A stretch of 64,000 nucleotides of DNA from positions 908 to 64,907 of the forward strand of contig DASPZJ010000048.1 of NCBI GenBank assembly GCA_035636315.1. Direction: 5' to 3'. The stretch is from Thermoplasmata archaeon (GTDB lineage Archaea; Thermoplasmatota; Thermoplasmata; RBG-16-68-12). A program made the position numbers and the translations under genes. Shown in pieces: positions 6,581 to 48,379 of this stretch. Positions within the stretch are counted from its first letter, which is position 1. Every line of letters begins with the position of its first letter. The notes under the pieces are model-generated. The model made no database searches, was not told where the DNA came from, and saw only the letters and a list, made by a program, of their open reading frames with translations.

Positions 6581-6757
6581 AGTGACCCCGCGGGCCACAT
6601 GATGCGACACGCCTTTAAGGATTACGAAAGCGCTTTTGCTTTGGTCAACTCTCGAACGTATGCACGGGATTTCGGTCGTTGCGGACCGTGCGCTTGCGGG
6701 CCGGTCGGACCCTTTAAATATCCTCAACCGCATGCGCGGCCGGAGGGCGGGTCCGTG

Positions 6758-7147
6758 GTGTTGGCAACGATTCCGGGCGCGTTTCAGACGGAGCTTCTCG
6801 GAGGCGCGCTGTGCGCGCTCCTCGTCGTGATTTGGGTCATCTTTCTGCTCGTTGCGATCTGGGTGTATCGCGACGCCGAGAGCCGGGGGATGAGCGGCGT
6901 CCTCTGGCTGATCGTCGTCCTGCTGTTCGGGCTCATCGGGCTGATCATCTACCTCGTCGTTCGCAAGGACAAAGTCCAGCCGATGATGACGCAGCCGTAC
7001 GGCCAGCCGCCGTGGCAGCCGCCGCCGGCAGGCGGCATGCCGCCTTCCGCCGGTCCGGCGCCCCCTGCACAGATGACGTGCCGGAACTGCGGTTCGCCGC
7101 TCGCCCCCGGCGCGACGTTCTGCGGGAAGTGCGGCGCGAAGGTCTGA
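6758..7147 (+). CDS. small membrane protein: PLDc_N-like (cardiolipin-synthase N-terminal) 2-TM domain + C-terminal zinc ribbon
   Basis: YRDAESRGMSGVLWLIVVLLFGLIGLIIYLVVRK motif typical of PLDc_N; P/Q-rich linker; CRNCGSPL...CGKCGAKV zinc ribbon; GTG/TTG start 6758/6761 downstream of TATA-like CTTTAAATAT (~6713). Confidence 0.5.
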   Translation: MLATIPGAFQTELLGGALCALLVVIWVIFLLVAIWVYRDAESRGMSGVLWLIVVLLFGLIGLIIYLVVRKDKVQPMMTQPYGQPPWQPPPAGGMPPSAGPAPPAQMTCRNCGSPLAPGATFCGKCGAKV

Positions 7148-7243
7148 GCGGCGGTAGCGGGCGGCACGGGACATCGCTCGAGATCGGACGCCGCCGCGAA
7201 CTCTGCGGAACCCGGCGACGCAAGCGCAGGCTTCGATGCTTTT

Positions 7244-8569
7244 ATGGCGACGGAGCCTTCTCCCGCGCGCGGTGCGCGCATGAAGAGTTCCGACGTGTCC
7301 GGCTTCTACAAGAAGAGCCCGGAGGACCGCTGGCAGACGATCCGCGGTTTCGGCGAGCTCACGGACGCGGAGGTCGACACGATCCGCAACACGGGAGCCC
7401 TGAAGTTCGAGCAGGTCGACCGGATGATCGAGAACGTCGTGGGCACGATGCCGATCCCGCTCGGGATCGCGGTGAATTTCCGAATCAACGGACGCGATTA
7501 CCTCGTGCCGATGGCGATCGAGGAGCCAAGCGTTGTCGCGGCGGCGTCGAATGCCGCGAAGATGGCCCGAGACCGCGGCGGCTTCGCGACCAGCTCGACC
7601 GGACCCATCATGATCGGCCAGATCCAACTCGTCGGGGTGCCGGACCCGCACGGGGCGCGCATGACGATCCTGGCGCACCGCGACGAGATCCTCTCCCTGG
7701 CCAACGAGAAGGACCCGATGCTCGTGAAGGTCGGCGGCGGCGCGAAGGACGTGGAGGTGCGCGTCCTCGAGACGCCTCGCGGGCCGATGGTCGTCACGCA
7801 TCTCCTCGTGGACTGCCGCGACGCGATGGGGGCGAACGCGGTGAACACGATGGCGGAGGCGGTCGCGCCCCAGCTGGAAAAGTGGACGGGGGGGCGGGTG
7901 TACCTTCGGATCATCTCGAACCTCGCGGTGCGACGCCTCGTTCGGGCCCGGGCCGTGTTCTCGAAGGACGCGATCCGATCGGAGAACGCCTCCGGGGAAG
8001 ACGTCGTCGAGGGCGTCCTCGAGGCGTACGCGTTCGCCGAAGCGGACCCGTTCCGGTGTGCGACGCACAACAAAGGGATCATGAACGGTATCGACGCGGT
8101 CGTCGTCGCCACGGGGAACGATTGGCGGGCGATCGAGGCCGGCGCCCATTCGTACGCGGCCTGGAAATCGGGCGGCTACCGGTCTCTCACGGCGTGGGAG
8201 AAGGATGCCAACGGGGACCTCGTCGGGACGATCGAAGTCCCCCTGGCGGTCGGGCTGGTGGGGGGAGCGACGGCGGTCCATCCCACGGCCAAGGCCAACG
8301 TCCGCTTGCTCGGAGTGAAGACCGCGCAGGAATTAGGCGAGATCATCGCGTCGGTCGGGCTCGCACAGAATTTCGCGGCGCTCCGCGCGCTGGCGACAGA
8401 AGGGATTCAACGAGGTCACATGTCCCTCCACGCTCGCAACATCGCCGCGACGGTCGGGGCGACAGGGGATGAGGTCGAGCAGGTCGCTCAGCTCCTCGTC
8501 AAGGAGCGAAAGGTGCGGATGGACCGAGCAAAAGAAATTCTCGACGAAATGAGGAAGAAGCGCCACTAA
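7244..8569 (+). CDS. hmgA: 3-hydroxy-3-methylglutaryl-CoA reductase (likely class II / bacterial-type); start possibly at M13 (7280)
   Basis: ENVVGTMPIPLGIA, DAMGANAVNTMAE, GTIEVPLAVGLVGG motifs; ~430 aa. Confidence 0.85.
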   Translation: MATEPSPARGARMKSSDVSGFYKKSPEDRWQTIRGFGELTDAEVDTIRNTGALKFEQVDRMIENVVGTMPIPLGIAVNFRINGRDYLVPMAIEEPSVVAAASNAAKMARDRGGFATSSTGPIMIGQIQLVGVPDPHGARMTILAHRDEILSLANEKDPMLVKVGGGAKDVEVRVLETPRGPMVVTHLLVDCRDAMGANAVNTMAEAVAPQLEKWTGGRVYLRIISNLAVRRLVRARAVFSKDAIRSENASGEDVVEGVLEAYAFAEADPFRCATHNKGIMNGIDAVVVATGNDWRAIEAGAHSYAAWKSGGYRSLTAWEKDANGDLVGTIEVPLAVGLVGGATAVHPTAKANVRLLGVKTAQELGEIIASVGLAQNFAALRALATEGIQRGHMSLHARNIAATVGATGDEVEQVAQLLVKERKVRMDRAKEILDEMRKKRH

Positions 8570-8780: not shown

Positions 8781-10430
8781 GTGATGCCGTCGACGTCGAC
8801 GCACGGCGTCAGACTTTCGTCGGACCGGCAGACTTTTTTACCCGCAGGTGCCTTTGCGGCCACGGGATGGGTGCGCACGGTACGCGTCGCGATCTACACT
8901 AGAGTGTCGACGGAAGACCAGGCAAAGGAAGGGTTTTCCCTCGATGCACAGAGGGAGCGCCTCCAGGCGTACTGCCTCGCCCGCGACTGGGCGGTCGCGG
9001 CTACCTACATCGACGACGGCCACTCGGGTCGAAACACGAAACGGCCCGCGTATCAGCGGATGATGGCCGAGCGCGAACGTTGGGATGCGCTCCTCGTCAT
9101 CAAGATGGATCGGATTCACCGCAACGCCCGGAACTTCATGGAGATGATGGACGATCTCCGGGAGTGGGAGAAGGACTTCGTCTCCGCGACGGAGTCGCTC
9201 GATACGTCCACGGCCATGGGCCGCTTCGTGATGGACATCATCCAGCGGATCGCCCAGCTCGAGTCCGAGCAGATTGGGGAACGCGTGTACATGGGCATGT
9301 CGCAGAAGGCGAAGGTGGGTCCGGGGATGCTCGGATTCCATGCTCCACTTGGCTACGAGGTTTTGGAGGGTCAGCTCGTCCCTGAGGCCCAAGAGGCGAA
9401 CCTCGTGCGCGAGATCTTCGACCGGTGCCGCGAGGGGCGCACCCTCGATGAGATCGCCTCCGGCCTCAACGCCGACGGTCATAGGACAAAACGAGGCACC
9501 GAGTGGACGGCGGTCAAGGTCTACCGCATCGTGCACAATCCGGTCTACGCAGGTTTCCTGCGGTGGGACGGCATCCTGCGGCGGGCGGAGCACCCCGCAA
9601 TCGTCCCCGTCGAGACGTTCAACGAAGCGCAAGAATCCCTCCGGCATCGGGCCCTGCTCGCGAACGCAAACGGTCCTCCGATCCTCTTGGAGGTGTAAGC
9701 CGTGGACGGACGATGTGCGCGGTGCTGGAGTCCGAAGAATCTCGTGAACCACGAGGCGGACGCGAATCCCCGAGCGGATCCCACCGTGCGCAGGGAGAAG
9801 GTAGTCCTCTGCAAACACTGCGGGGACGGGGCCCCCCTGGACGCGCTGCTGTTCTGGGAAGTATACATGCGCTTCGGCTCGACGCGCGAACTTCTGCAGC
9901 ACTACGGGACAGATTCGGAAGAGCTCGCGTTGCAGAAGCTGTGCACGGAGCGCGGGTTGAACGAGCGGGAGGTCCTCCGCCGCGCTCGCGGACAGCAGAG
10001 CGCTGAGGCGCTCAACAACGCCGTCAAGAAGGCGAACGCTTTCCTCACGTATGCCAGCCCGTACGGGTACGATTACGTGAATGGAATCCTCCAGCTACGG
10101 CAGGATGAGGCTCGCGTCGTCTCGCTCATCTTCCGCAGGTATCTCGAGGGCAAGGGCATCGCAAAAATCTGCCAGGAACTGAACCGGGATGGCTATCGCA
10201 CCAAGACGGGCCGCGCTTGGGCGAGTCAGACGATTGCGAATATCCTCAGCAACCCCGTGTACTGCGGCCTCGCCCGCTTGAACGGCGGCATCAAGCGAGG
10301 AAGGCACGAACCCCTGATCGAAATCGACACGTTCAACCGGGTCCAGAACGAAATGCAACGCCGGATCCGCCGACCCGATCAGAGGAAGGCTCAGCCGCCG
10401 CAGCTGCGGCTCGAGGACTACTCCCCGTGA
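8781..10430 (+). pseudogene. large serine recombinase (resolvase catalytic domain + recombinase domain + zinc ribbon + second recombinase-like domain) interrupted by in-frame TAA at 9699-9701
   Basis: ORFs 8781..9698 and 9702..10430 are in the same frame separated by a single TAA; N-terminal VRVAIYTRVSTEDQ (catalytic Ser region, likely GTG start 8871); recombinase-domain blocks YEVLEGQLVPEAQEANLVREIF... and YGYDYVNGILQLRQDEARVVSLIF...; zinc ribbon CARCW...CKHCGDG. Confidence 0.6.
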
Positions 10431-19400: not shown

Positions 19401-20251
19401 GGATCCGCGCGCGGCCGATCGCTCCCGGTCGGGCGACCGGGACCGCCCTCGTCCATCCGCAGCCATTCTCCTTCGTGGGCGGGGTGGATCCGAGGACCGG
19501 GGCCGTGCTCGACCGCGGCGCGCCCGCGCCGGGACGTTCGCTCGCGGGGCGCGTGTTCGCCTTCCCGCATGGAAAGGGGAGCACGGTCGGGTCGTACGTG
19601 CTCTACGGCCTGGGACGGCGCGGCGTGGGGCCGGCGGCGATCGTGAACTCGCGCGCCGAAGCGATCGTCGCGGTCGGCGCCGTCCTCGCGGGCGTCCCGA
19701 TGGTCGACCGAGTGGATGTCGGAGGAATCCGGTCGGAGGATCGGATCACGGTCGATGGGGATCGCGGCGTCGTCGAGCTCCCCGAGGTACGTGGGCGCGC
19801 CGTCGTGTCCGCGGTCCTCCGAAACCATGGACGGATCCTGATCGTCCGGCGGAGCGAAGCGGTCGGGAGCTTCCAGGGTCGCTGGTCCGCGGTATCCGGC
19901 TACATCGAGGGGCGAGAGGATCCGCGCGACCGCGCGGTCCGCGAGGTCCGGGAGGAGACGGGCCTCCGACGTCTCGTCCTTCGGGCGACCGGGCAGCCGG
20001 TGCTCGCACGGACCGACGCCACGGTGTACGTCGTCCATCCGTTCCTCTTCGACGTCCCGAGCCGCGCGGTCCGACTCGACTGGGAGAACGTCGATCACGC
20101 GTGGGTCCGGCCCGAGGACCTGGGCCGATACGACACGGTCCCCCGACTGGAGGACGTCATCGGGTCCGTCCTGCCGTCGACCGCGTCGACTCCCAGGCCG
20201 TCCCCGAGGCGTCCCCGGAAGACGATCAGGAAGACGGTTTCCCCGGGATGA
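19397..20251 (+). CDS. AcnX small subunit (DUF126-like) fused to C-terminal Nudix hydrolase domain
   Basis: ATG overlaps large-subunit stop (ATGA); N-terminal ~130 aa MRIRARPIAPGRATGTALVHPQPFSFVGGVDPRTG...; C-terminal perfect Nudix box GYIEGREDPRDRAVREVREETGL. Confidence 0.6.
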   Translation: MRIRARPIAPGRATGTALVHPQPFSFVGGVDPRTGAVLDRGAPAPGRSLAGRVFAFPHGKGSTVGSYVLYGLGRRGVGPAAIVNSRAEAIVAVGAVLAGVPMVDRVDVGGIRSEDRITVDGDRGVVELPEVRGRAVVSAVLRNHGRILIVRRSEAVGSFQGRWSAVSGYIEGREDPRDRAVREVREETGLRRLVLRATGQPVLARTDATVYVVHPFLFDVPSRAVRLDWENVDHAWVRPEDLGRYDTVPRLEDVIGSVLPSTASTPRPSPRRPRKTIRKTVSPG

Positions 20252-23200
20252 CTCGGTCCACTTCCCGCTCGAAGAGCGTCAGCTGATGCGCATCGAGGGC
20301 GGACGGGTTGACGGACAGCAGGAGGACCGCCCCGTTGATTGCCACCTGGTCTCGCAGGGACTGGATGAGCCGGAGGATCGTGATGAAATTGTTATTCGTC
20401 ACGAGGTATTCGAGGCCGTCGATCAAGACGACTCCGGTCGTCCCGCCGAGGAATTGCTCGACCGAGAGGGAGAGTTTCTCCAGGTCCTTCGGTCGAACCG
20501 AGTTCTCCTTCCCGACGTTGCTGAGCCAGAGGATCCGGAGGTCCACACCTCCGAACCGCTCACGGACCTTCTTCGGATAGACCCGCGTGATGCAGAGGCC
20601 CGTCTTGCCGGCCTGCAAGGCGGTCCGGAACAAGTCGTACACCTCGCTCGGAGTCTTCTCTTCGATCAGGTACGTCGAGGAGTCCTTCAGAGGCTGCGCG
20701 GCTCCTTTCGCATCGCCGGCCTCGGGGTGACCTGCGCCCGGCGTCTGCGAGGCGCCACACGCGGGGCACACCGTCCACTCGGGTGGAAGCAGGGCGCCGC
20801 AGGCGACGCACGCGACGCGGGGTGCGACTGACGGCCCGATACCCGAGAGCACGAAGCCGCATGCCTCGCATGCGTCCGAGCCGGGCGGGACCGGAGCTTG
20901 GCAGTGGGGACAGGGCGTCGCCTTCGTCGTCGCGGGCTCGCCGCACCGGGGGCATCGTCGCACGCCGGCCGGAATCGTCGCGCCGCAGGTCGCACACTCG
21001 ACGTCGGCGGGTCCTTCCTTCGACAGCGCCCCCATGATCCGCTCGGCATCGGACGGTTCGAGGCCCTCGATGGCCGCGAGTTCCGCCTTCGTCGCCGCCT
21101 TGAGAGCGCCGACGCTCTTGTACCCGGCATCGAAGAGGGCCATCGCCTTCGCCGTCGTGATGCCGGGAACCTTCGTGAATTCGCGGAGCGACTCCGACAT
21201 GTGGAGCGGCGTCACCCCGATCGTGACCGAGCGGCCATCGACATCCTTCCATTCGACCACGTACTCCGATTCGACGTCCTTGTCCGTGAACGCGAGTCTG
21301 CGGGACCGCGTCTCCCGCGCCATGAACGCGGCCTGAGGCGCGAGCGTCGCGGCGAACTCCTTGTTCGTCTTGACGACCGTCGCAATGAAATCGTCCACTT
21401 CGAGGTCGATCTCCTTCCGCATCTGTTGCACGCGCCGGATGATCTCTCGGGCGTAGGCCTCCGCCTGGAGCTCCGGCGTCACGCGGAGGTCGAGATACAG
21501 CTCGCCGTGCGGTGTCGTCGCGACGAGGACGTCCGGAGGCACCTGCTTCTCGAATCGCACCATGGACGCGTCGATCGTGACGATCTGGCCTTCCACGCCG
21601 ACCTCGTACGGCCCCCGCTCGAGCGCCTTCCGGATCTCCTCGGCGGGCCGCGCCTCGAGGACCTTCACGATCTTCGGCTGGAGGACCTTGTACGCCTTTC
21701 CGATCGCGGCGGGATCTGGCTTGGCGACGATCGCCATCCCGGGGAACTCGTCCGTGGGCTTGAGGACGGCGAGCTCCTTCGCGTTCGTCAGTTCGAGGAA
21801 GACGCCCTTCAACGAATCGAGGGCGGCGGCCGCACCCGGCGTGGGTGCTCGGACCGCCACGAGCTTCAGCGGCCAGCGGAGCTTGCGGCCTCCCTTCTGC
21901 CGCTCCTTCGACACGACCTCGACGAGCTCTTGCACGATCGCCATCGACGCTTCGAGGTCCTCCTTGCGGCGTCCTTCGATGGTCGAGGGCCAATCGAGCA
22001 TGTGGACGCTGAGCTTGCGGCCGTCGAGACGCTGGTAGATCGCCTCGGCGATGTACGGCGTGATCGGCGCGAGCAGCGCGGCGACCGTCCCGAGCGATTC
22101 GTGCAGGACGCGGTAGGCGGCGAGCTTGTCACGGTCCGTCGCATCGGTCCACGTCCGTTCGCGGACGAGCTTGACGTACCAGCGGGACAAGTCGTCCAGG
22201 ATGAACGACTCGACGGCGCGGTACGCTCGGTGGAGGCTGTACGTCGCCATCTCGGCGTCGACCGTCGCCTTCACGCCCTCGAGGCGCGAGAGGAGCCAGC
22301 GGTCCTCGTGTCGAAGATGGCCCTCGACGTTCGGCGCGCCCGGTGCAAACGGATCGAACCGATCCAGTACCATGTACGTCGTCGCGAATCGGAGGACGTT
22401 CCAAAGGATATTCAGGGTGCGAAGGGCCGTCCGGACCCCGTCCTCTTGGAACGTGATGTCGTCCCAGGGAGCGTTCACGAGGACCATGTAGAGGCGGAGC
22501 GCGTCGACGCCGAACTTGTCCACGACCGTCGACGGCTCGACGTAATTCCCGAGGGACTTGTGCATCTGCCTACCATCTGGCCCGTTCACCCATCCGTGCA
22601 TAAGGACGGATTCGTACGGGGCACGGTCGAAGGCGACGACGCCGGCGGCGAGTTGCGAGTTGAACCAGCCGCGCGTCTGGTCCGGACCCTCGACGATCCA
22701 ATCCGCGGGCCACCACCGCTTGAACTCGTCCTCCCCCGCCGGATAGCCGAGGCTCGCCCAGGTCGAGACGCCGCTGTCGAACCAGACATCGACGATGTCG
22801 CGCACCCGCGCCATCGTCCCGCCGCACTCGCCGCACGGCAGGGTGACGGCATCGATGCCCGGCCGGTGGAGGTCCATGCCGTCCTGGTAGCCGCGGCCCT
22901 GCCGGAGTTCCACGGACGACCCAACGACGATCCAGTGGCGGCACTTTACGCACCGCCAGATCGGGAGAGGGATGCCCCAGTACCGCTGTCGGGAAACGCA
23001 CCAGTCGCGCAGGTCCTCCGTCCAGTGGAGCTGCCGGGCGGAGCCGGCCCAGTCCGGGTACCACCGGACGCGCCGCACCTCGTCGACCATCTTCGGCTTG
23101 ATGTCGGAGACCTTCAGGAACCATTGGACCGTGGCGCGGAACAGGATCGGCGTCTTGCACCGCCAGCAGTGGCCGTAGGCGTGGACGAGGGTCCCTTCGG

Positions 23201-24365
23201 CGAACAGCGCGCCCGCGGACCGCAGATCGTCGATGATGATCGGGTTCGCCTCTTTCACGTGTTTCCCGGCGTACTCGCCGGCGTCCGGCGTGAAGTGCCC
23301 CCGCTCGTCGACCGGGGAGAACGCCGGCAGGCCGAGCCGCTGCCCGAGCTCGAAGTCCTCCGGACCGTGACCGGGCGCGGAGTGGACCAGGCCCGTGTGC
23401 TCGGCCTCGACGACCTCGGACGCCACGACCTTGTGCACCCAATCGCCTTTGATGCCGGCCTGGTACGGGATCCGCGGGGCGAGCGGATGCAGGTACGCGC
23501 GGCCGACGAGCCGGTCCCCCGTCGTTCGTTCGGCGATGTCGTACGAGGCAATGCCACCGAGCGCCATCACCGTCGGGACCGCGGATTCCATCATCCAGAC
23601 GTACTCCGCCTTGTCGCCCGAACCAAACCGCACCTTGGCGTACGAGAACTGCGGATGGATCGCGATCGCGAGATTCGCGGGTAGCGTCCACGGCGTCGTG
23701 GTCCAAATGAGCAGGGATTCCTTCAGATGGCCCGCGAGCGGGAACTTCACGTAGATCGATGGATCGGTCTCGTCCGCGTACTCGACCTCCGCGTCCGCCA
23801 GGGCTGTCTCGTCCCGCGTGCACCATTGGATCGATCGCAGCGCTTCGTATAGGAGCCCCCTCTCGTACGCGCGCTTCAGGGTCCACCATGCGCCTTCGAT
23901 GTACTCGTTGCGGATCGTCATGTAGGGACGGTCCCAGTCCAGCCAGACACCGAGCGATTGGAACTGCTCCGTCATCTTCTTCAGGAGGTCCAGGGAGAAG
24001 TTCCGGCAGGTGTCGATGAACTTCGCGATTCCGAGGTCCTCGATCTCCTTCTTGTTCGTGATCCCGAGGGTCTTCTCGACCTGGACCTCGATCGGGAGGC
24101 CATGCATGTCGTAACCCGGCTGGTCGCGGACGCGGAAGCCCCGCATCCGGCGGTAGCGGACGACGGCGTCCTTGATCGTCTTGTTCAGCACCTGTCCAAG
24201 GTGGATCGTGCCGGTCGTGTACGGCGGGCCGTCGCCGAAGTAGTATTCCTCTCCGCGCTCGCGCGCGGCGACCGTCTTCGGGTAGACTTTCGCGCGCGTC
24301 CAGAATTCCTGGACCTGACGCTCTAGCTCCGCTGGAAGGTACGACTTCTCCGCCTGCTTGATCAT
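20226..24365 (-). CDS. ileS: isoleucyl-tRNA synthetase, continuing in frame without a stop into a ~324-aa HhH / multi-zinc-ribbon / DUF835-like module
   Basis: Start taken at MIKQAEKSY (ORF track 24398); class I motifs PPYTTGTIHLGQ and KSLGN, editing and anticodon domains; IleRS-like end ...SVTIGVTPLHM at ~21201, then SLREFTKVPGITTAKAM... (HhH), 4 CxxC pairs, then DUF835-like GLCITR...VLIDGLEYL... Confidence 0.8.
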   Translation of the reverse strand: MIKQAEKSYLPAELERQVQEFWTRAKVYPKTVAARERGEEYYFGDGPPYTTGTIHLGQVLNKTIKDAVVRYRRMRGFRVRDQPGYDMHGLPIEVQVEKTLGITNKKEIEDLGIAKFIDTCRNFSLDLLKKMTEQFQSLGVWLDWDRPYMTIRNEYIEGAWWTLKRAYERGLLYEALRSIQWCTRDETALADAEVEYADETDPSIYVKFPLAGHLKESLLIWTTTPWTLPANLAIAIHPQFSYAKVRFGSGDKAEYVWMMESAVPTVMALGGIASYDIAERTTGDRLVGRAYLHPLAPRIPYQAGIKGDWVHKVVASEVVEAEHTGLVHSAPGHGPEDFELGQRLGLPAFSPVDERGHFTPDAGEYAGKHVKEANPIIIDDLRSAGALFAEGTLVHAYGHCWRCKTPILFRATVQWFLKVSDIKPKMVDEVRRVRWYPDWAGSARQLHWTEDLRDWCVSRQRYWGIPLPIWRCVKCRHWIVVGSSVELRQGRGYQDGMDLHRPGIDAVTLPCGECGGTMARVRDIVDVWFDSGVSTWASLGYPAGEDEFKRWWPADWIVEGPDQTRGWFNSQLAAGVVAFDRAPYESVLMHGWVNGPDGRQMHKSLGNYVEPSTVVDKFGVDALRLYMVLVNAPWDDITFQEDGVRTALRTLNILWNVLRFATTYMVLDRFDPFAPGAPNVEGHLRHEDRWLLSRLEGVKATVDAEMATYSLHRAYRAVESFILDDLSRWYVKLVRERTWTDATDRDKLAAYRVLHESLGTVAALLAPITPYIAEAIYQRLDGRKLSVHMLDWPSTIEGRRKEDLEASMAIVQELVEVVSKERQKGGRKLRWPLKLVAVRAPTPGAAAALDSLKGVFLELTNAKELAVLKPTDEFPGMAIVAKPDPAAIGKAYKVLQPKIVKVLEARPAEEIRKALERGPYEVGVEGQIVTIDASMVRFEKQVPPDVLVATTPHGELYLDLRVTPELQAEAYAREIIRRVQQMRKEIDLEVDDFIATVVKTNKEFAATLAPQAAFMARETRSRRLAFTDKDVESEYVVEWKDVDGRSVTIGVTPLHMSESLREFTKVPGITTAKAMALFDAGYKSVGALKAATKAELAAIEGLEPSDAERIMGALSKEGPADVECATCGATIPAGVRRCPRCGEPATTKATPCPHCQAPVPPGSDACEACGFVLSGIGPSVAPRVACVACGALLPPEWTVCPACGASQTPGAGHPEAGDAKGAAQPLKDSSTYLIEEKTPSEVYDLFRTALQAGKTGLCITRVYPKKVRERFGGVDLRILWLSNVGKENSVRPKDLEKLSLSVEQFLGGTTGVVLIDGLEYLVTNNNFITILRLIQSLRDQVAINGAVLLLSVNPSALDAHQLTLFEREVDRVIPGKPSS

Positions 24366-24710
24366 CGCAGCCCCTCTCCCGGGGAATCGGGCCACCAAGA
24401 GGCTTCTTCATCGCCTCGGAGCGGCGGTCCGTTTATGCCAATAGCCATATTAAAAAGTGCGGGCCTACGCGGCTGCGTTCCACGGCCCCGCCCCTAACTC
24501 CGGTCGTGGAACAATCTGCTACGGCCGTGGAACAGGGAACGCCGCATTGGGTCGGTAGTCGTTGAATGGCGCGACGCCAGGGCATTGCCTCCAAGACGTG
24601 GACCGGACGAAATCGATAAAACGCCGGTGCCGATTCCGCCCGGCATGGCCAAGCCCGGCGACATCACATCTGTTCTGAACGTATAAGTATCCTCGCAGCC
24701 TTCAGTCAAA

Positions 24711-27245
24711 ATGGGTGGCTTGGAGAGTAGAAGAGACGTTCTGCGAATGTGCCTGATCGCAGGTTCGCTCTTGGCAACTGGCTTCGTTCTTCAAACATTT
24801 AGCACCGCGAATGCACAGGCTGCCCTCATACCTCATCAACCCATATCCATCTATGGCGACGACCAGTTCACGCCTGCCCACGGGGTTGTGACCGGGAATG
24901 GTACGGTGACGGACCCATTCGTTATCCAGGGTTGGGACATCGACGCCTCTTCGGCTACGGGGATCTATGTTCAAGACACGCAGGCTGTTTTCGTCATCCG
25001 GAATTGTCACATCCACGGCAACGCCGCCATCTCCTTCTGGAACGTGGTGCACGGCAATGTTGAAAACAATTCCATCGACGTCTCGGGACGTGCGATTGAG
25101 TTCGGCGAATCGGACGGCTTGCTTGTCAGCAACAATGATTTCTCGGGACCCGGCAGCGGGGTGGCGACATTCAGTTCCCGCCACGTCACGCTCTTTGCGA
25201 ACAGATTCGCCGCTGGAGGTGTATTTGTCAGCGGTGCTTTCGTCGACCAATATGACTCACTCCAGGTTCCTGCAAACAATACGATCAACGGCCGACCGAT
25301 CATGCTCGTAAAAGACTCGGCCGGCGCCGAGATTGATGGAGGGGACATCGGACAACTCCTATTGGTAAATGTAAGCGGCGCTCGAATTGCCAACCTAACA
25401 GTTGGCGGTGCATACGCGAACATGCTTCTCGCCTTCGTGAACGACACGACGCTTCTGCGGAACGTTGTCGCGAACGGTACGTATGGCATCTATGTGGACA
25501 AGTCATCGGACGTATGGATCACTGACAACAACGTCTCCTCGAACGTGGATACGGGGATCGGCATCTATTATTCAAGTACTGCCACGATAGTCGGAAACAA
25601 CATCGCTTCGAACCAATACGGAATTCGAATGGAGTTCGGGAGTTCCGCATCGATTTTCCACAACAACCTCGTCCGAAATGGGGTCCAAGCTGTCGTCGAC
25701 GTTGATTCCGGAGGGAAGTGGAACGACGTCTACCCGTCGGGGGGCAACTTTTGGTCAGATTATTCCGGTCTAGATTCCTGTAGTGGCAACGACCAAAACG
25801 TCTGTCCGAACCCGGATGGAATCGGCGATACGCCGCGCGCAATCAGCGACCTCCGAGCGGATAGAGACCGTTTTCCGTTGATGTCACCGTTCAGCGGCAC
25901 ATCTCCGCGACAACCGAGTCCGTATCCGCTCTACGGCAGCGTTTCAGAGGGATGGGGTAGCACACCGACATCGCTGACGAGTCCCGGTCCGGTCTTTGCA
26001 ACTCGGGAAGGCGAAACTATAACACTTCACCTTCTCAGCGTCGATGGCCTCACACACAGTTGGTTCCTCGACATCAACAACAACTCAATCCCAGACTCCG
26101 GAGAGCCCGTCAGCCCAGACTTTCAATCAGGAACCGTCCCCCTTAACTTCACGTTCAATGCTCCACCAGGTATGGTGGGCGCGTTCCCGTATCGGTGTCG
26201 CTACCACCCAGCCGTGATGAACGGACAGTTCGTGATTCGACCGAATCGGAGCGAACCGAGCTTCTCCCTCTACGGTAACTTCAACGGGTGGGGCTTGTCA
26301 ATGAACTCTACGTCGAATCCGGGACCGACCCTAGAGCTCTATTATGGAGAGGTCGCAACCCTCCAGCTGACGACGCTCGATTACACCCACTTCTTCACGT
26401 GGTTCATCGACTACAACAACGACACCGTCGAACAGGCATGGGAGCCGTCTTCTGGGGCATTTTGGTACCACTCCCCGATCCAAACGCGTTTCACCGCAAA
26501 CAGGCTAGGCACGTTCACCTATCGTAGCAGCGAATATCCCACAATAATGACTGGCCTAGTCCAAGTCACCGGTACTCAAATCAAACAGTCGGCGCCTCCG
26601 TCGACCGAAGCGAGCCTTGCCGGCAAACGTGGATCGAATGATTGGTTCGTCTCGGCCGTAACCGTCTCCCTGACCGCTTCCGATTTGCTCGGCTCCGTTA
26701 CACGGACTCAGTTCCGCATCGACCTTGGAGTTTGGTCGAACTACACCGCTCCGTTCACCATTGCCACGGATGGATTCCACGTGATGAGCTTCTATTCGAC
26801 CAATGATGCCGGCGACGTCGAAGCGGTGAAGTCCGCAATCGTCCGCATCGACACGGTTCCACCAGGAATCCGGATCTTCGACTCGGCCGAGTCGACAGTC
26901 TCCTCGCCGCTGACTGTGGACTGGCAAGTGCAAGATGCCAGTTCCGGGTTGGGATACTGTGTAATTCAAATGGACCAGGACGACCCCACCAATGTGGGGA
27001 CGACATCCTCCGCGACATTCAATCTCGCCGATGGAGTTCACACGTTCTCGGTCGTAGCGTTTGATTCAGCGGGAAACTCAGCATCAGCAACAGCTCGATT
27101 CGTCGTGGGTGGAAGCGCTGCCCAGAGCCCATTAGGGTTTCCCTCCAACTATGTGAGTGGCGGGGCCATCGCGGGGGTTGCGGGAGGCTTAGCTTTACTT
27201 TCGGCGTGGTGGATTAGAAGGCATCGTCGCCCACCTCGAAGATGA
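24711..27245 (+). CDS. secreted/surface protein: Tat-like signal, NosD-like right-handed beta-helix repeats, two cupredoxin-like domains (one with full type-1 Cu ligand set), Ig-like region, C-terminal TM anchor
   Basis: SRRDVLRMCLIAGSLLATG signal; repeated N..I / GIY..S..V..NN motifs (PbH1); GETITLHLLSVDGLTHSW...YRCRYHPAVMNGQF (H, C-x2-H-x3-M); second copy lacks Cys; C-terminal GGAIAGVAGGLALLSAWWIRRHRR. Confidence 0.65.
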   Translation: MGGLESRRDVLRMCLIAGSLLATGFVLQTFSTANAQAALIPHQPISIYGDDQFTPAHGVVTGNGTVTDPFVIQGWDIDASSATGIYVQDTQAVFVIRNCHIHGNAAISFWNVVHGNVENNSIDVSGRAIEFGESDGLLVSNNDFSGPGSGVATFSSRHVTLFANRFAAGGVFVSGAFVDQYDSLQVPANNTINGRPIMLVKDSAGAEIDGGDIGQLLLVNVSGARIANLTVGGAYANMLLAFVNDTTLLRNVVANGTYGIYVDKSSDVWITDNNVSSNVDTGIGIYYSSTATIVGNNIASNQYGIRMEFGSSASIFHNNLVRNGVQAVVDVDSGGKWNDVYPSGGNFWSDYSGLDSCSGNDQNVCPNPDGIGDTPRAISDLRADRDRFPLMSPFSGTSPRQPSPYPLYGSVSEGWGSTPTSLTSPGPVFATREGETITLHLLSVDGLTHSWFLDINNNSIPDSGEPVSPDFQSGTVPLNFTFNAPPGMVGAFPYRCRYHPAVMNGQFVIRPNRSEPSFSLYGNFNGWGLSMNSTSNPGPTLELYYGEVATLQLTTLDYTHFFTWFIDYNNDTVEQAWEPSSGAFWYHSPIQTRFTANRLGTFTYRSSEYPTIMTGLVQVTGTQIKQSAPPSTEASLAGKRGSNDWFVSAVTVSLTASDLLGSVTRTQFRIDLGVWSNYTAPFTIATDGFHVMSFYSTNDAGDVEAVKSAIVRIDTVPPGIRIFDSAESTVSSPLTVDWQVQDASSGLGYCVIQMDQDDPTNVGTTSSATFNLADGVHTFSVVAFDSAGNSASATARFVVGGSAAQSPLGFPSNYVSGGAIAGVAGGLALLSAWWIRRHRRPPRR

Positions 27246-27290
27246 CAGAAGGAATCATGACCCTCATGATCCACTGCCTTCTCCTTGAGG

Positions 27291-27367
27291 GGCCGGGAGC
27301 GAGATTTGAACTCGCGTCAAGGGATCCACAGTCCCCTAGCATAAGACCAGGCTAGCCCATCCCGGCC
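27291..27367 (-). tRNA. tRNA-His (anticodon GTG) with genomically encoded G-1; no encoded CCA
   Basis: Reverse complement: G-1, acceptor GCCGGGA/TCCCGGC, anticodon arm GGGGA-CTGTGGA-TCCCT (GTG at 34-36), T-arm GCGAG-TTCAAAT-CTCGC, discriminator C; D-arm carries AGCCTGG loop but stem pairing is imperfect. Confidence 0.8.
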
Positions 27368-27390
27368 GCAGGGCGACCGAAGATTCGAGG

Positions 27391-27404
27391 TGCATATAGG
27401 GTTT
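27391..27404 (-). promoter_or_regulatory. BRE/TATA box (CAAAAC-CCTATATGC on minus strand) ~30 nt upstream of tRNA-His 5' end
   Basis: Read directly; spacing matches archaeal promoter architecture. Confidence 0.45.
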
Positions 27405-27513
27405 TGGTCGGTTCGGCGCGAAGCCGGAGGCCGGCGTGCGCTCGAGTTCTTTCACCGACCTCCCGGGGCGGCGTTGAACTACCTCCGAGCCGGTTCGAGT
27501 CCACGGTCCGATT

Positions 27514-28056
27514 ATGTCCTTGCCGAAACGTAGCCCCCGACTCCGTCCCGACCGCGAGCGGTTGGAGTCGCAAATCGGCCGGTCGACGTTGATCGTGGTC
27601 CTGCTGGGATCGGCCGGAAACGGCCTCGAGGAGCGGAGACGGGCCGCCCGCCTCCTTAACGAGCTCGGGATGGCCGCGCTCGTGCCGGAAGATGACTTTC
27701 CTCGAGACGTAGGCGCCTCCGTCTTAGAGCGCGCAATCCTGTCCCGGGCCGACGTCGACTTGGTTTTCGTCAGCGTGGAGTCGTGGGGAAGCGCTACCGA
27801 GTTCGGGCAGTTCCATACGGATCCACGAATCGCCAGCAAACTCCGGGTCCTCGTCGACCCCGAGCACCATCCGCTCCATGACCCGAAAGATGGGTACCTG
27901 AAGGACCTGTACCTGACCCACCTCGCCGCATACGGCCACGTGTACGCCGTGGACGGCGGCCGCATGGTGCGCGTGCCTTCGAAGGAATCCCTCGTGCTCC
28001 TGATGGCGGAACGATACCGGCAGCTCAAACAGTTTCAGCCAAACCTTATCAGGTAA
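27514..28056 (+). CDS. hypothetical protein with nucleoside 2-deoxyribosyltransferase-like (NDT/LOG/SLOG-type Rossmann) features
   Basis: LIVVLLGSAGNG N-terminal strand-Gly loop and DVDLVFVSVESWGSATEFGQF resembling the D.G[ST]A.E.G catalytic-Glu motif of NDT-like enzymes; adjacent to tRNA-His. Confidence 0.4.
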   Translation: MSLPKRSPRLRPDRERLESQIGRSTLIVVLLGSAGNGLEERRRAARLLNELGMAALVPEDDFPRDVGASVLERAILSRADVDLVFVSVESWGSATEFGQFHTDPRIASKLRVLVDPEHHPLHDPKDGYLKDLYLTHLAAYGHVYAVDGGRMVRVPSKESLVLLMAERYRQLKQFQPNLIR

Positions 28057-28086
28057 AGATACTTATACCTCATCAACTATCGTTGA

Positions 28087-28449
28087 TTCACGAAAGCCGT
28101 TCCCGATATCCAAGAGATCGGCCCAGAGCTCCTCGACCTCCTGCGGGCGTACACCGCCCTCGACAATCCGATTCGCCTCAAGGCGTATCTTCTCGTCCGC
28201 GAGTCGGGCGACATCCCGTTTCACGCGCTGGCGAAGAGGTTGGGCGTGGAGAGTGGATTGCTCGCCTACCACCTCGGAGTCCTCAAGGTGGCGGACCTGG
28301 TCGAGATGAGATACGAGCGCGCGGGGCGCGAAATCTCGAGATACCGCCTCTCCGAACGTGGAAGGGAGCTCTACCCCACGCTGTTCCCGCCACGAAAGGA
28401 AGCGTCCAGGAAGTCCGCGAAAGCTTCCGTCCGAGTCGCCGCTCGATAG
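28087..28449 (+). CDS. ArsR/SmtB-type winged-HTH transcriptional regulator; no canonical start before internal TTG at 28240
   Basis: In-frame translation from stop at 28084: ...PELLDLLRAYTALDNPIRLKAYLLVRESGDIPFHALAKRLGVESGLLAYHLGVLKVADLVEMRYERAGREISRYRLSERG; TATA-like ACTTATAC at ~28063. Confidence 0.45.
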   Translation, partial: FTKAVPDIQEIGPELLDLLRAYTALDNPIRLKAYLLVRESGDIPFHALAKRLGVESGLLAYHLGVLKVADLVEMRYERAGREISRYRLSERGRELYPTLFPPRKEASRKSAKASVRVAAR

Positions 28450-28467
28450 GCGGACGGCGGCGTCGCG

Positions 28468-28725
28468 TCACTCTTTGGGCATCTCAAGAAGCCCCGCGAG
28501 TGGTTTTTGGACGAGGACCAGCGCCGATCCGATGAACACGATGCCGATCCCCATGACTCCGAGGAGCACCGCAACGTTCACCGGGGTAAGGATGACGCCG
28601 ATGCCGCCTGCGAACAGCAGCACGACGCCCGCGGTGCCGACCCGCACGCTCGTTCTCCGCCGACGTGCCGCAGCCTCCCGGGCCTCCCGCGCTCGCTCGG
28701 CGGGCGTCGTCCGGCTCGACTCCAT
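28468..28725 (-). CDS. small 2-TM membrane protein (hypothetical)
   Basis: 85 aa, R-rich N-terminus then two hydrophobic helices; weak. Confidence 0.3.
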
Positions 28726-28818
28726 GGAACCCGATTCGGCCCCTCTCTATTTCAGACCTCCGCACAGCGCCGCTGTCCCTGCACAAACGTTTTGTATCGC
28801 ACGAAGGATGGCACGCGG

Positions 28819-29748
28819 ATGGCCGCCAAGCGAGACCTCGTTTCGATGCTCGACGTCCGCGACGACCTGGTCGGGCTGCTCGAGTTGGCGGGAAAGATCA
28901 AGAATCGGACTAAGGCCGGCGAGCCGTACGAACCGCTGCGCGGAAAGAGCCTCGCGATGATCTTCGAGAAGGCGTCGACGCGCACGCGCGTCTCCTTCGA
29001 GGTCGGCATGACGCAACTCGGCGGCCATGCGCTCTTCCTGAGCCCGAACGACACGCAGGTCGGTCGAGGCGAGACGATCGCCGATACCGCCCGGGTCCTG
29101 AGCCGCTACGTCGACGGCATCATGTACCGCGCCTTTCGGCGGGAGAGCGTCCGAGAGCTCGCGGCGAACGCAACCGTGCCCGTGATCAATGGCCTCGATG
29201 ACAAGGAGCATCCCTGCCAGATCATCTCCGACCTGTTCACGATCCAGGAGAGGAAACGCTCCCTTTCGGGGCTCAAGCTCGGATACATTGGGGACGGCAA
29301 CAACGTGTGCAACTCCCTCTTGCTCGGGACCGCGATCGTCGGGATGCACATGAGCGCGGCGTGCCCGGAAGGCCACGAGCCAGACCCGGCACTCCTCGCG
29401 GAGGCGCGACGCATCGCGAAGGCGAGCGGCGCAAGACTCGGCATCGAACGCGATCCAAGGGCGGCCGCGAAGGACGCCGATTTCCTGTACACGGACGTGT
29501 GGGTGTCGATGGGGCAGGAGAAGGAACGCGAGGAAAGGGAGCGCGCCTTCAAGGCGTACCAGATCAACGCGAAGCTCCTCGAAGCTGCGAAGGAGGATGC
29601 CCTCGTGATGCACTGCCTACCGGCCCACCGTGGACTCGAGATCACGGACGACGTCATGGATGGGCCGCAGTCGATCGTGTTCGACCAAGCCGAGAACCGC
29701 CTGCACGCGCAGAAGGCGATTCTGGCCCGGCTCTTGGCCGGTATCTGA
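28819..29748 (+). CDS. argF: ornithine carbamoyltransferase
   Basis: [18 protein letters not shown] motifs; start taken at MAAKRDL (ORF-track upstream extension rejected). Confidence 0.85.
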
Positions 29749-47610: not shown

Positions 47611-48174
47611 ATGGAAGTAAAGCGGATGAAAGTGAAGGTGTGCCTCGTCGGCGAGGCGGCCGTCGGGAAGACGTCGCTCATCCGCCGGTTCGTCTTGGAC
47701 AACTTCGACGACAAGTACATCCAGACGCTCGGCACGAAGGTCTCGAAGAAAGAACTCACGTCCTCGGTGCCCGAAGGCGCCGGCGAGCTCAAGATCGACA
47801 TGACGATCTGGGACATCATGGGTCAGAAGGGGTTCCGGGAACTCCTCAAGGAAGCGTACTTCTACGGTGCCCGGGGGATCCTCGCGGTGTGCGACGTCAC
47901 CCGCCGGAAGACCCTCGACGATCTCGACGACTGGATCGAAGGCGTCTACAGCGTCACCGGGAAGATCCCGATCGAGTTCCTGGGGAACAAGGTCGACCTG
48001 AAGGACCAGGCACAGATCACGGAGGACGAGATGGTCCAGGCGGCGCGCGCGTACGACAGTCCCTTCCATTTCACCTCCGCCAAGACGGGCGTCAACGTCG
48101 AGACCGCCTTCCAGTCCCTCGCCGAACGTGTCGCGAAAGAGCGCTACACCCGGAAGGTTATCCCCGAAGAATGA
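47611..48174 (+). CDS. Rab-like small GTPase (Ras superfamily), paralog 1
   Basis: G1 GEAAVGKTS, switch I YIQTLGTKV, G3 WDIMGQ, G4 GNKVD, G5 TSAK; 187 aa, no C-terminal Cys. Confidence 0.75.
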   Translation: MEVKRMKVKVCLVGEAAVGKTSLIRRFVLDNFDDKYIQTLGTKVSKKELTSSVPEGAGELKIDMTIWDIMGQKGFRELLKEAYFYGARGILAVCDVTRRKTLDDLDDWIEGVYSVTGKIPIEFLGNKVDLKDQAQITEDEMVQAARAYDSPFHFTSAKTGVNVETAFQSLAERVAKERYTRKVIPEE

Positions 48175-48309
48175 GAATCGTCAGGGGCAATCGGAGCGAG
48201 GACAAGCCGCCCTTACTCTAACTCTTCCTGATGCCGATCGGCGCTCGTCGCTGAAGATTGAGAGCGAACAGGGTGGGACGGCGACTCCCCCAGGCGCATA
48301 TCGACGACC

Positions 48310-48322: not shown

Positions 48323-48379
48323 AGGGACGATACTCGCGTCCTCACGGTACATAAATCAGCGCCGGGTTGGGCGTCGTTG

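What the first reader, a model, noticed from the sequence alone, without database searches (positions are those of the whole stretch)
24711..27245. Giant Tat-exported beta-helix surface protein with tandem cupredoxin domains, one degenerate
The 844-aa protein combines a twin-arginine-like signal (SRRDVLR), NosD/pectate-lyase-like parallel beta-helix repeats, a cupredoxin domain with a complete type-1 copper ligand set (H...C-x2-H-x3-M), and a second cupredoxin-like domain that has lost the Cys. It ends with Ig-like segments and a C-terminal TM anchor with a basic tail. It is expressed divergently from ileS. This may be a copper-dependent surface oxidoreductase or electron-transfer scaffold, or an S-layer-associated protein.
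Basis: partly seen in the sequence, partly recalled or inferred. Interest (0 to 1): 0.5.

Follow-up and report, generated by a model that had tools for sequence, protein, structure and literature searches.

The report
Archaeal surface beta-helix protein with cupredoxins
This gene of an uncultured Thermoplasmata archaeon encodes a membrane-anchored cell-surface protein in which a NosD-like beta-helix is followed by one intact and one ligand-less blue-copper (cupredoxin) domain; the parts are all known kinds, the twin-arginine export idea does not hold up, but the helix-plus-cupredoxin combination recurs and does not appear in the papers I searched.

Summary
The 844-aa ORF (24711-27245, +) is real and matches NCBI HYS73187.1, 'NosD domain-containing protein', from a Thermoplasmata MAG.

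Architecture, N to C:
- Signal peptide.
- NosD/CASH-type right-handed beta-helix (Pfam NosD E 4e-30; AF2 pLDDT above 95).
- Two Ig-like domains, then a C-terminal TM helix with a basic tail.

Domain 1 keeps the type-1 copper ligands H449/C496/H499/M503. These are HCHM in 153 of 198 family domains. Domain 2 has F562/S606/Y609/M613, so it lost Cys and both His, yet it is as conserved as domain 1.

Readings not supported:
- Tat export: RR is RK in variants at least 90% identical, absent in orthologues, and the Tat model scores below its cut-off.
- Canonical NosD: the inferred His-Met-Met positions are substituted and there are no nos genes in the window.
- Multicopper oxidase or NirK: no HxH or HCH ligands.

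No copper genes lie elsewhere in the 64 kb window. The ileS | gene | tRNA-His order is conserved in two orthologous loci.

Twelve of 45 long family members share the beta-helix-then-cupredoxin order.

Most likely this is a Sec-exported surface protein carrying one redox-active blue-copper module. Interest is moderate.

The parts
24682..24689 (+). TATA-box-like element (TATAAGTA). Its end lies 21 nt upstream of the ATG (centre about 25 nt), consistent with a leaderless archaeal transcript starting at or near the ATG.
   Evidence: Read directly from the sequence. This is inference only; it has not been tested.
24711..27245 (+). CDS of the 844-aa surface protein, stop codon included.
   Evidence: ORF list and translation. 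100% identical to P0001 = NCBI HYS73187.1, 'NosD domain-containing protein [Thermoplasmata archaeon]'.
24711..24821 (+). Signal peptide, aa 1-37. It has a basic n-region (SRRDVLR), a hydrophobic core and AXA sites (ANA/QA, AQA/AL). It is probably Sec-type rather than Tat.
   Evidence: Hydrophobicity maximum at aa 9-32. Tat model below its cut-off. RR is not conserved.
24822..25904 (+). NosD/CASH-type right-handed parallel beta-helix with N-cap and C-cap (aa 38-398). The C-cap includes the GGNFWSDY...C357...C365...DGIGDTP motif shared with canonical NosD.
   Evidence: Pfam NosD E 3.9e-30 and Beta_helix E 2.6e-22. PDB NosD 7o0y E 5.9e-5, with the GNYWSDY alignment. AF2 pLDDT above 95 for aa 40-340 and 50-68 for aa 340-400.
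25923..26243 (+). Cupredoxin domain 1 (aa 405-511) with a complete type-1 copper ligand set. Codons: H449 at 26055-26057, C496 at 26196-26198, H499 at 26205-26207, M503 at 26217-26219.
26262..26573 (+). Cupredoxin domain 2 (aa 518-621). The fold is kept but the copper site is lost: F562, S606, Y609, M613 at the ligand positions.
   Evidence: Family HMM E 7.9e-29. Ligand columns. pLDDT about 90 or more in the two-domain model. It is as conserved as domain 1 between orthologues, 69% against 67%.
26601..26858 (+). Ig-like domain 1, OmpL47-type / Big_13-like beta-sandwich (aa 631-716).
   Evidence: NCBIfam NF047446, 64 bits against a cut-off of 40, aa 646-713. AF2 pLDDT about 90. Foldseek hits to tandem Ig-like adhesin modules.
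26859..27110 (+). Ig-like domain 2, Big_13-like (aa 717-800).
   Evidence: Pfam Big_13 aa 766-798 at its cut-off of 27 bits. AF2 pLDDT about 90.
27159..27242 (+). C-terminal transmembrane helix (aa 817-835, GGAIAGVAGGLALLSAWWI) and basic cytoplasmic tail (RRHRRPPRR).
   Evidence: Sequence and hydrophobicity. No significant archaeosortase-type CTERM model hit; the best was PVV-CTERM at E 0.24. The same kind of anchor is found in most family members.
20226..24398 (-). Context: the divergently transcribed ileS gene, here a 1390-aa ORF with a C-terminal HhH / zinc-ribbon / DUF835 extension.
   Evidence: TIGR00392 915 bits. Pfam domains. The same neighbour is found in L001 and L002.
27289..27366 (-). 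Context: a convergent tRNA-His(GTG) gene 44 bp after the stop codon.
   Evidence: ARAGORN and Rfam. The same arrangement is found in L001 and L002.

Best explanation
The gene encodes a cell-surface protein of an uncultured Thermoplasmata archaeon. It is exported by a cleavable, most likely Sec-type, signal peptide and held in the membrane by a C-terminal helix with a basic tail.

Reading outward from the membrane, there are two Ig-like spacer domains, then a copper-less cupredoxin (domain 2), then a cupredoxin with an intact His-Cys-His-Met type-1 site (domain 1). At the tip is a NosD/CASH-type right-handed beta-helix.

The cupredoxin module belongs to a large family of mostly small, membrane-anchored one- or two-domain blue copper proteins. 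Here, and in at least eleven other 50%-identity clusters, it sits directly after the C-cap of a NosD-like beta-helix.

Proposed mechanism:
- Domain 1 binds one copper and performs one-electron transfer on the outer face of the cell.
- The beta-helix provides binding to a partner or a glycan.
- Domain 2 and the Ig-like domains act as rigid spacers.

What is shown: the domain folds, the ligand conservation, the anchor, and the synteny. What is inferred: copper binding, redox function, topology, Sec export, and what the helix binds.
For: Architecture:
-, as listed under parts.

The cupredoxin family:
- It has 408 representatives at E <= 1e-3.
- The ligand quartet is HCHM in 153 of 198 domains, and 28 of 38 tandem proteins have two intact sites.
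- Members reach Pfam Copper-bind (30.1 bits, cut-off 21.2), Cu-oxidase_3 and Cupredoxin_1.
- The profile hits the PDB NirK cupredoxin at E 4.4e-15, with His, Cys and Met aligned.

Selection on the copper site in the fusion context:
- HCHM is kept in the window protein, in its variants at least 90% identical, and in the 61% and 46% orthologues.
- It is kept in 8 of the 12 beta-helix fusions.
- The domain order, helix then cupredoxin starting 5-10 residues after the C-cap, is conserved in most of them.

Domain 2:
- It is constrained: 69% identity against 67% for domain 1.
- In P0003 it still has H, C, H, A, which dates the loss to after that split.

Surface location:
- Signal peptide plus C-terminal TM helix.
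- 14 N-x-S/T sequons against 9.6 +/- 2.7 expected. This is weak support.

Stable locus:
- The ileS | gene | tRNA-His order is the same in three lineages.
- The protein diverges faster (46-61% identity) than IleRS (68-78%), as is typical of surface proteins.

Literature:
- Thermoplasmatota are known to encode many blue copper proteins, including two-domain forms with two type-1 sites and no function prediction (PMC9038741).
Against: - No copper, respiratory or Tat gene lies in the 64 kb window.
- Two stand-alone family members examined are not next to respiratory complexes either.
- If the protein is extended, domain 1 sits three domains away from the membrane. That is a poor position for exchanging electrons with membrane complexes.
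- Four of the 12 beta-helix fusions have lost ligands (YCYM, HDFM, HCNM, and the second domains), so copper is dispensable in some lineages.
- No dedicated signal-peptide predictor was available.
- The ligand of the beta-helix is unknown.
Confidence: 0.55

Rival explanations
1. A purely structural or adhesive surface protein (adhesin or S-layer-associated). The beta-helix binds glycans or other cells. Both cupredoxin domains serve only as Ig-like spacers, and the ligand set of domain 1 is an inherited feature without a redox role.
For: - Domain 2 has lost three of its four ligands yet is as conserved as domain 1.
- Four of the 12 helix-cupredoxin fusions have degenerate sites.
- The family module also occurs with dockerin, cohesin, PKD and Big_5 modules, which are typical of adhesive surface proteins.
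- NosD-like proteins lacking the His-Met-Met motif have been proposed to act in adhesion (PMC13452462).
- There are no redox partners in the window.
Against: - The four ligands of domain 1 are invariant across orthologues that are only 46% identical overall, and they are kept in 8 of 12 fusions.
- Four specific residues conserved on loops is not what a mere spacer would be expected to show.
Confidence: 0.28
2. The NosD-like beta-helix and the adjacent cupredoxin form one functional unit. Either the helix hands copper to the cupredoxin in cis, as NosD relays Cu(I) to NosZ, or the helix binds a substrate that is oxidised or reduced through the type-1 copper. That would make it a new kind of extracellular copper oxidoreductase.
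For: - The order helix-then-cupredoxin, with a short linker, recurs in 12 of 45 long family members. Their helices are divergent (phmmer E down to 1e-13).
- The C-cap motif is shared with canonical NosD.
- Canonical NosD serves a cupredoxin-containing enzyme (as described in PMC13452462).
Against: - The positions aligned to the inferred His-Met-Met copper site of NosD are Tyr, Asp and Tyr here.
- No alternative conserved His/Met/Cys cluster is evident in the helix. The only HxH motif, H100-I-H102, is not conserved in orthologues.
- NosD-type helices are very common modules in Thermoplasmata surface proteins: 708 hits among the 8000 candidates scored. Some fusions could therefore arise by shuffling alone.
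Confidence: 0.12
3. A Tat-exported, cytoplasmically folded and copper-loaded protein.
For: - The string S-R-R-D-V-L-R resembles the S/T-R-R-x-F-L-K consensus.
- There is a weak TIGR01409 hit at E 0.15.
Against: - The score of 12.5 bits is below the 16.7 cut-off.
- RR is RK in variants at least 90% identical and absent in orthologues.
- Only 7 of 144 family members have an RR-like motif.
- No tatA or tatC gene lies in the window.
Confidence: 0.04
4. A catalytic multicopper enzyme (two-domain laccase or NirK-like), or a genuine NosD maturation factor for nitrous oxide reductase.
For: - The Pfam NosD domain is present.
Against: - There is no HxH or H-C-H motif in aa 399-626, which holds only five His residues, and the Cys is flanked by Arg.
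- The global TM-score to two-domain laccases is only 0.34, because the domain packing differs.
- TIGR04247 scores 63.9 bits against a cut-off of 300.
- There are no nosZ, nosF, nosY or nosL genes in the window.
Confidence: 0.02

Closest known systems
Archaeal 'NosD domain-containing' / parallel beta-helix repeat surface proteins (Pfam PF05048 and PF13229, CASH-type)
   Same: - A signal peptide and an N-terminal right-handed beta-helix with the H-x-P-I-x-I N-cap.
- The GGN(F/Y)WSDY...DGIGDTP C-cap.
- Downstream Ig/PKD-type domains and a C-terminal anchor.
- Hundreds of homologues in Thermoplasmata and other Euryarchaeota MAGs.
   Different: Only a few of them carry cupredoxin domains. None of the eight genome loci recovered with the helix patterns did.
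Canonical NosD of the NosDFY copper-delivery complex (PDB 7o0y; TIGR04247)
   Same: Homologous beta-helix and C-cap (phmmer E 5.9e-5). Both are extracytoplasmic.
   Different: - Scores far below the TIGR04247 cut-off (63.9 against 300 bits).
- The aligned positions of the inferred His-Met-Met copper site are Tyr, Asp and Tyr.
- There are no nosF, nosY, nosZ or nosL neighbours.
- It has its own TM anchor and extra domains.
Membrane-anchored blue copper proteins of Thermoplasmatota: plastocyanin-like one-domain BCPs and 'ancestral' two-domain BCPs with two type-1 sites (Diamond et al. 2022, PMC9038741)
   Same: - The cupredoxin domains here belong to the same kind of protein: signal peptide, one or two type-1 cupredoxins, C-terminal TM anchor.
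- Sequence relatives score E down to 1e-52.
- One relative is named 'plastocyanin' by JGI, with Pfam Copper-bind.
   Different: - Here the module is embedded in an 844-aa multidomain protein behind a beta-helix.
- The second domain has lost its site.
- I did not show that this family is identical to any subfamily named in that paper.
N-terminal cupredoxin domain of three-domain Cu nitrite reductases (2dv6, 6tfd), and two-domain laccases (SLAC, Ssl1)
   Same: - The type-1 His, Cys and Met align.
   Different: - No type-2 or type-3 copper ligands.
- Different inter-domain packing (TM 0.34).
- A shorter ligand loop, C-x2-H-x3-M.

Membership tests
Cupredoxin / type-1 blue copper protein (Pfam clan CL0026) | Greek-key beta-sandwich cupredoxin fold. 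| tested here: met
   [not shown]
Cupredoxin / type-1 blue copper protein (Pfam clan CL0026) | His ... Cys-xn-His-xn-Met ligand set at the canonical positions. | tested here: met
   Domain 1 has H449, C496, H499 and M503, which are conserved family columns, and His, Cys and Met align to the NirK type-1 ligands. Domain 2 does not meet this feature: F562, S606, Y609, M613.
Cupredoxin / type-1 blue copper protein (Pfam clan CL0026) | A match to a curated cupredoxin sequence model above its threshold. | tested here: inconclusive
   The window protein itself has no Pfam cupredoxin hit, even at E <= 10. Family members do: Copper-bind 30.1 bits against a cut-off of 21.2 in P0121, Cu-oxidase_3 in P0250, Cupredoxin_1 in P0276. 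The family profile hits PDB cupredoxins at E 4e-15.
Cupredoxin / type-1 blue copper protein (Pfam clan CL0026) | Binds one copper with blue-copper spectroscopy. | not testable with these tools
   This needs purified protein, UV-vis and EPR.
Canonical NosD (N2O reductase maturation, TIGR04247) | Score above the family cut-off. | tested here: not met
   63.9 bits against a cut-off of 300.
Canonical NosD (N2O reductase maturation, TIGR04247) | The conserved His-Met-Met copper-binding motif (described in PMC13452462, citing the NosDFY structure). | tested here: not met
   In the HMMER alignment to 7o0y, the NosD segments YGVHYM and YALMQ align to YGIYVD and IGIYYS. Which NosD residues form the motif is my inference from that alignment and from the paper's mention of Gly225.
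Canonical NosD (N2O reductase maturation, TIGR04247) | The nosDFY / nosZ / nosL gene context. | tested here: not met
   The neighbours are ileS, tRNA-His, ornithine carbamoyltransferase and a nitrate/sulfonate-type ABC importer. There are no nos genes in the 64 kb window.
Archaeal NosD-domain / parallel beta-helix surface proteins (PF05048, PF13229) | Pfam domain above the gathering score, plus a signal peptide and an extracytoplasmic architecture. | tested here: met
   PF05048 105 bits against 23.6; PF13229 79.6 against 25.9. Hydrophobic N-terminus and C-terminal TM helix.
Tat (twin-arginine) substrates | A conserved S/T-R-R-x-F-L-K motif scoring above the TIGR01409 cut-off. | tested here: not met
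   12.5 bits against 16.7. RK in close variants. No RR in orthologues. 7 of 144 family members have an RR-like motif.
Tat (twin-arginine) substrates | The genome encodes TatA and TatC. | not testable with these tools
   Only the 64-kb window is available, and none was found in it.
Two-domain multicopper oxidase / copper nitrite reductase | Type-2/type-3 (or NirK type-2) histidine ligands: HxH motifs and His flanking the type-1 Cys. | tested here: not met
   There is no HxH motif in aa 399-626. The Cys context is R-C-R. The only HxH in the whole protein is at aa 100-102, in the helix.
Archaeosortase-processed surface proteins (PGF-CTERM and relatives) | A C-terminal sorting signal matching a CTERM model. 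| tested here: not met
   The only hit is PVV-CTERM at E 0.24, 11 bits against a cut-off of 27. It is a plain TM helix plus basic tail.

The most novel reading that the evidence does not exclude
The NosD-like beta-helix and the cupredoxin that always follows it form a functional supra-domain. That would be a so-far undescribed class of archaeal cell-surface copper protein. In it, the helix either metallates the neighbouring type-1 site in cis (a fused analogue of the NosD-to-NosZ copper relay), or it binds an extracellular substrate whose electrons pass through the blue copper centre.
Probability: 0.12. Interest if true: 0.65.

Novelty: new variant of a known kind. Interest (0 to 1): 0.35.

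Why it matters
NosD-domain beta-helix proteins are among the most numerous predicted surface proteins of Thermoplasmata and other Euryarchaeota, and none has a demonstrated function. Blue copper proteins are expanded in soil Thermoplasmatota, and many of them also lack a function.

A recurrent fusion of the two, with the copper ligands kept in most fusions, gives a concrete handle. It suggests that at least some NosD-like surface helices work together with a redox-active copper centre. It also defines a small construct (aa 399-515) that could be expressed and tested.

There is a practical annotation point as well. Neither cupredoxin domain of this protein is detected by Pfam or NCBIfam. Inventories of blue copper proteins that rely on those models will therefore miss this family.

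If the cupredoxins turn out to be only spacers, the finding is an ordinary modular surface protein.

Tried and rejected
1. Direct Pfam scans of the two cupredoxin regions at E <= 10 gave nothing. Single-sequence phmmer against the PDB gave only E about 0.2. The family had to be built first.

2. The word-indexed homologue search found only 6 and then 3 relatives of the cupredoxin region. The structure prediction therefore used a shallow 13-row alignment, which still gave pLDDT 87.

The genome scan with full-length orthologues returned only beta-helix paralogues at about 30% identity, without cupredoxins. I did not obtain the lineage within Thermoplasmata or a complete genome.

4. The afdb50 fold library was unavailable.

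5. Foldseek with the full-length model was dominated by tandem Ig-like adhesins and gave no beta-helix neighbours in the top 50.

6. I considered that the gene is a recently acquired island, because its GC is 55.6% and GC3 0.63, against 66% and 0.875 for ileS, and a tRNA gene lies downstream. I rejected this because the ileS | gene | tRNA-His order and the GC contrast are shared by orthologous loci.

7. Tat export, canonical NosD, MCO/NirK and archaeosortase sorting were each tested and rejected (see Membership tests).

8. The Nature paper on the NosDFY structure was not in the library. The His-Met-Met residues were therefore inferred rather than read.

9. The context of two stand-alone family members showed no respiratory neighbours.
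Full report
**1. The observation**

The window has about 65% G+C. ORF 24711..27245 (+) starts with ATG and encodes 844 aa. It is identical to a protein in public databases, NCBI HYS73187.1, 'MAG TPA: NosD domain-containing protein [Thermoplasmata archaeon]', from a 73-kb contig. So the organism is an uncultured Thermoplasmata archaeon, and the existing annotation names only the beta-helix.

- S6-RR-DVLR12 followed by a hydrophobic core and AXA sites.
- A NosD-type beta-helix: Pfam PF05048 E 3.9e-30, PF13229 E 2.6e-22.
- A C-x2-H-x3-M motif (C496, H499, M503) with an upstream His (H449).
- A second similar segment without the Cys.
- Ig-like segments: NCBIfam OmpL47-type barrel domain 64 bits against a cut-off of 40, and Pfam Big_13 at its cut-off.
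- A C-terminal hydrophobic helix (aa 817-835) followed by RRHRRPPRR.

ileS (TIGR00392, 915 bits) lies divergently, 312 bp upstream.

**2. Are the two middle segments really cupredoxins?**

Pfam and NCBIfam do not see them, even at E <= 10. A single-sequence search of PDB sequences gives only E about 0.2 to Cu nitrite reductases.

An exhaustive HMMER search with aa 399-630 against 1.84 billion representatives found 408 proteins at E <= 1e-3, and 196 at E <= 1e-10. Most are 170-320 aa proteins with a signal peptide, one or two copies of this domain and a C-terminal TM helix with a basic tail.

In 198 domain instances from 159 proteins, the four columns corresponding to H449, C496, H499 and M503 are occupied by:
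- H in 185,
- C in 179,
- H in 166,
- M in 180.

The full quartet HCHM occurs in 153 instances.

Some members reach curated cupredoxin models: Copper-bind 30.1 bits against 21.2; Cu-oxidase_3; Cupredoxin_1; and the JGI name 'plastocyanin'. A profile of 90 family domains hits the N-terminal cupredoxin domain of three-domain Cu nitrite reductases (2dv6, 6tfd) at E 4-5e-15, with the type-1 His, Cys and Met in register. It hits two-domain laccases at about 1e-8.

**3. The copper sites**

Domain 1 (aa 405-511) has the complete type-1 set. Domain 2 (aa 518-621) has F562, S606, Y609 and M613 at the same columns.

The closest orthologue, P0002 (61% identity), has F, S, Y, L. The next, P0003 (46%), still has H, C, H, A in domain 2. 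The site was therefore lost after that split.

Domain 2 is not decaying. Between the window protein and P0002 it is 69% identical, against 67% for domain 1 and 66% for the helix.

The protein is not a multicopper oxidase or a NirK:
- aa 399-626 contain only five histidines.
- There is no HxH motif.
- The Cys is flanked by Arg rather than His.

I could not measure ligand geometry, because model coordinates are not exposed.

**4. Export signal**

The Tat reading does not survive:
- The Tat model TIGR01409 scores 12.5 bits, below its 16.7 cut-off.
- Members of the same 90% cluster begin MESRKDVLRM, RK instead of RR. Several gene calls start at Met13.
- P0002 begins MGRESAVLR, and P0003 has no arginine pair even when read upstream.
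- Among 144 family proteins starting with Met, only 7 have any RR-x-hydrophobic motif, and one has a strict S/T-RR motif.

The basic residues are best read as the n-region of a Sec-type signal peptide. No dedicated predictor was available.

A TATAAGTA element ends 21 nt upstream of the ATG. That fits a leaderless archaeal mRNA and favours the annotated start, but it is inference only.

**5. The beta-helix**

AF2 on the full length (58-row alignment) gives mean pLDDT 80.5. The values are above 95 for aa 40-340, lower for the C-cap loop (aa 340-400), and about 90 for the two Ig-like domains.

The helix is homologous to canonical NosD (PDB 7o0y, E 5.9e-5), including the C-cap GNYWSDY...DGIGD. However:
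- TIGR04247 scores 63.9 bits against a cut-off of 300.
- Canonical NosD carries a conserved His-Met-Met copper site (PMC13452462). In the alignment, the NosD segments YGVHYM and YALMQ face YGIYVD and IGIYYS. I inferred which residues form the motif, because the structural paper was not available.
- There are no nos genes nearby.

The protein thus belongs to the very large group of archaeal 'NosD domain' surface proteins: 708 hits among the 8000 candidates scored, mostly Thermoplasmata/Euryarchaeota MAGs. It is not part of the NosDFY system. A recent paper proposes adhesion roles for NosD-like proteins lacking that motif (PMC13452462).

**6. The combination**

Of 45 family proteins of at least 450 aa, 12 have a NosD-like helix. 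In most of these, the cupredoxin starts 5-10 residues after the helix C-cap, followed by PKD/Big-type domains; nine of the twelve end in a C-terminal anchor. Eight of the 12 keep HCHM in that cupredoxin, and four are degenerate.

Other long members combine the cupredoxin with Big_5, cohesin or dockerin. The module is therefore promiscuous, but the helix-cupredoxin order is a recurrent arrangement. I did not find it described in the papers searched.

Thermoplasmatota rich in blue copper proteins have been described, including two-domain forms with two type-1 sites and no predicted function (PMC9038741).

**7. Context**

Across the called ORFs I scanned in the 64 kb window, I found only housekeeping and transport genes. 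They include ileS, ornithine carbamoyltransferase, ABC transporters, SecY and the ribosomal protein cluster, LonB, recombinases and small GTPases. There is no copper chaperone, multicopper oxidase, cox, nos or tat gene, and no second cupredoxin or helix paralogue.

A tRNA-His gene lies 44 bp after the stop codon.

The gene is compositionally distinct: GC 55.6% and GC3 0.63, against 66% and 0.875 for ileS. That, together with the tRNA, suggested an island. However, the same order, ileS | gene | tRNA-His, occurs in the loci of P0002 and P0003 (with an epimerase gene inserted in one), and the GC contrast is shared. The gene is an old resident that evolves faster (46-61% identity) than its neighbour IleRS (68-78%), as surface proteins usually do.

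Two stand-alone family members examined are not next to respiratory genes. One follows an ammonium transporter.

**8. Interpretation**

Most likely (0.55): a Sec-exported, C-terminally anchored surface protein. Its tip is a ligand-binding beta-helix. It is followed by one redox-competent type-1 copper domain, a structural ex-cupredoxin and two Ig-like spacers.

The conservation of the four ligands across divergent orthologues, and in most fusions, argues that copper matters. The distance of domain 1 from the membrane and the lack of partners nearby argue that it does not simply shuttle electrons between membrane complexes.

The main rival (0.28) is a purely structural or adhesive role. A more novel possibility (0.12) is that the helix and the cupredoxin act as one unit. 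Tat export, canonical NosD and MCO/NirK functions are disfavoured.

**9. Verdict**

All parts are known kinds, and the protein is already in databases under a partial name. The helix-cupredoxin arrangement and the undetected cupredoxin family make it a new variant of a known kind, of moderate interest (0.35).

Noticed in passing
window 20226-24398 (-): The ileS ORF is 1390 aa. After a complete IleRS (to about aa 1060) it continues in frame into a helix-hairpin-helix domain (aa 1072-1125), a double zinc ribbon (aa 1163-1215) and a DUF835 domain (aa 1248-1379). The orthologue in L002 aligns through aa 1314, so the extension is conserved. This is an unusual C-terminal fusion on an aminoacyl-tRNA synthetase.
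   Followed up: partly
window 47611-48174, 48128-48934, 49048-49581 (+): Three tandem genes for Ras-family small GTPases (Pfam Ras E 4e-36, 9e-36 and 3e-39; Roc and Arf also hit), next to the ribosomal protein cluster and LonB. Eukaryote-like small GTPases in a Thermoplasmata genome may deserve a look.
   Followed up: no
window 27289-27366 (-); L001 4936-5010; L002 6715-6789: A tRNA-His(GTG) gene lies convergent to the surface-protein gene and 44 bp downstream of it. The ileS | surface gene | tRNA-His order is conserved in two orthologous loci.
   Followed up: yes
window 24711-27245 compared with its flanks: The surface gene has much lower G+C than its neighbours: 55.6% and GC3 0.63, against 66% and 0.875 for ileS. 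The same contrast is seen in L001, and a weaker one in L002. It is therefore a gene-specific trait, not recent transfer.
   Followed up: yes
window 8781-9698 and 9702-10430 (+): Two adjacent ORFs: a serine recombinase (Resolvase plus Recombinase domains) followed by a second ORF with only the Recombinase domain. This may be a split or frameshifted large serine recombinase, or the remnant of a mobile element.
   Followed up: no
window 5153-8281 (-): A 1042-aa ORF whose only recognised domain, a periplasmic binding protein of the branched-chain amino acid type, covers aa 619-992. The N-terminal 600 residues or so are unassigned. It lies next to Liv-type permease and ATPase genes.
   Followed up: no
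window 27336-28028 (-), 28063-28272 (-), 28358-28960 (+): ORFs just downstream of the surface gene have no family hits. The first overlaps the tRNA-His gene and is probably not real. The real gene here is ornithine carbamoyltransferase, which matches from residue 106 of ORF 28507-29748.
   Followed up: partly
L011 5583-7540: A stand-alone member of the cupredoxin family (P0277, 179 aa) sits directly next to an ammonium transporter gene on an 83-kb contig. This is of possible interest given the proposed link between blue copper proteins and ammonia metabolism in archaea (PMC9038741).
   Followed up: no
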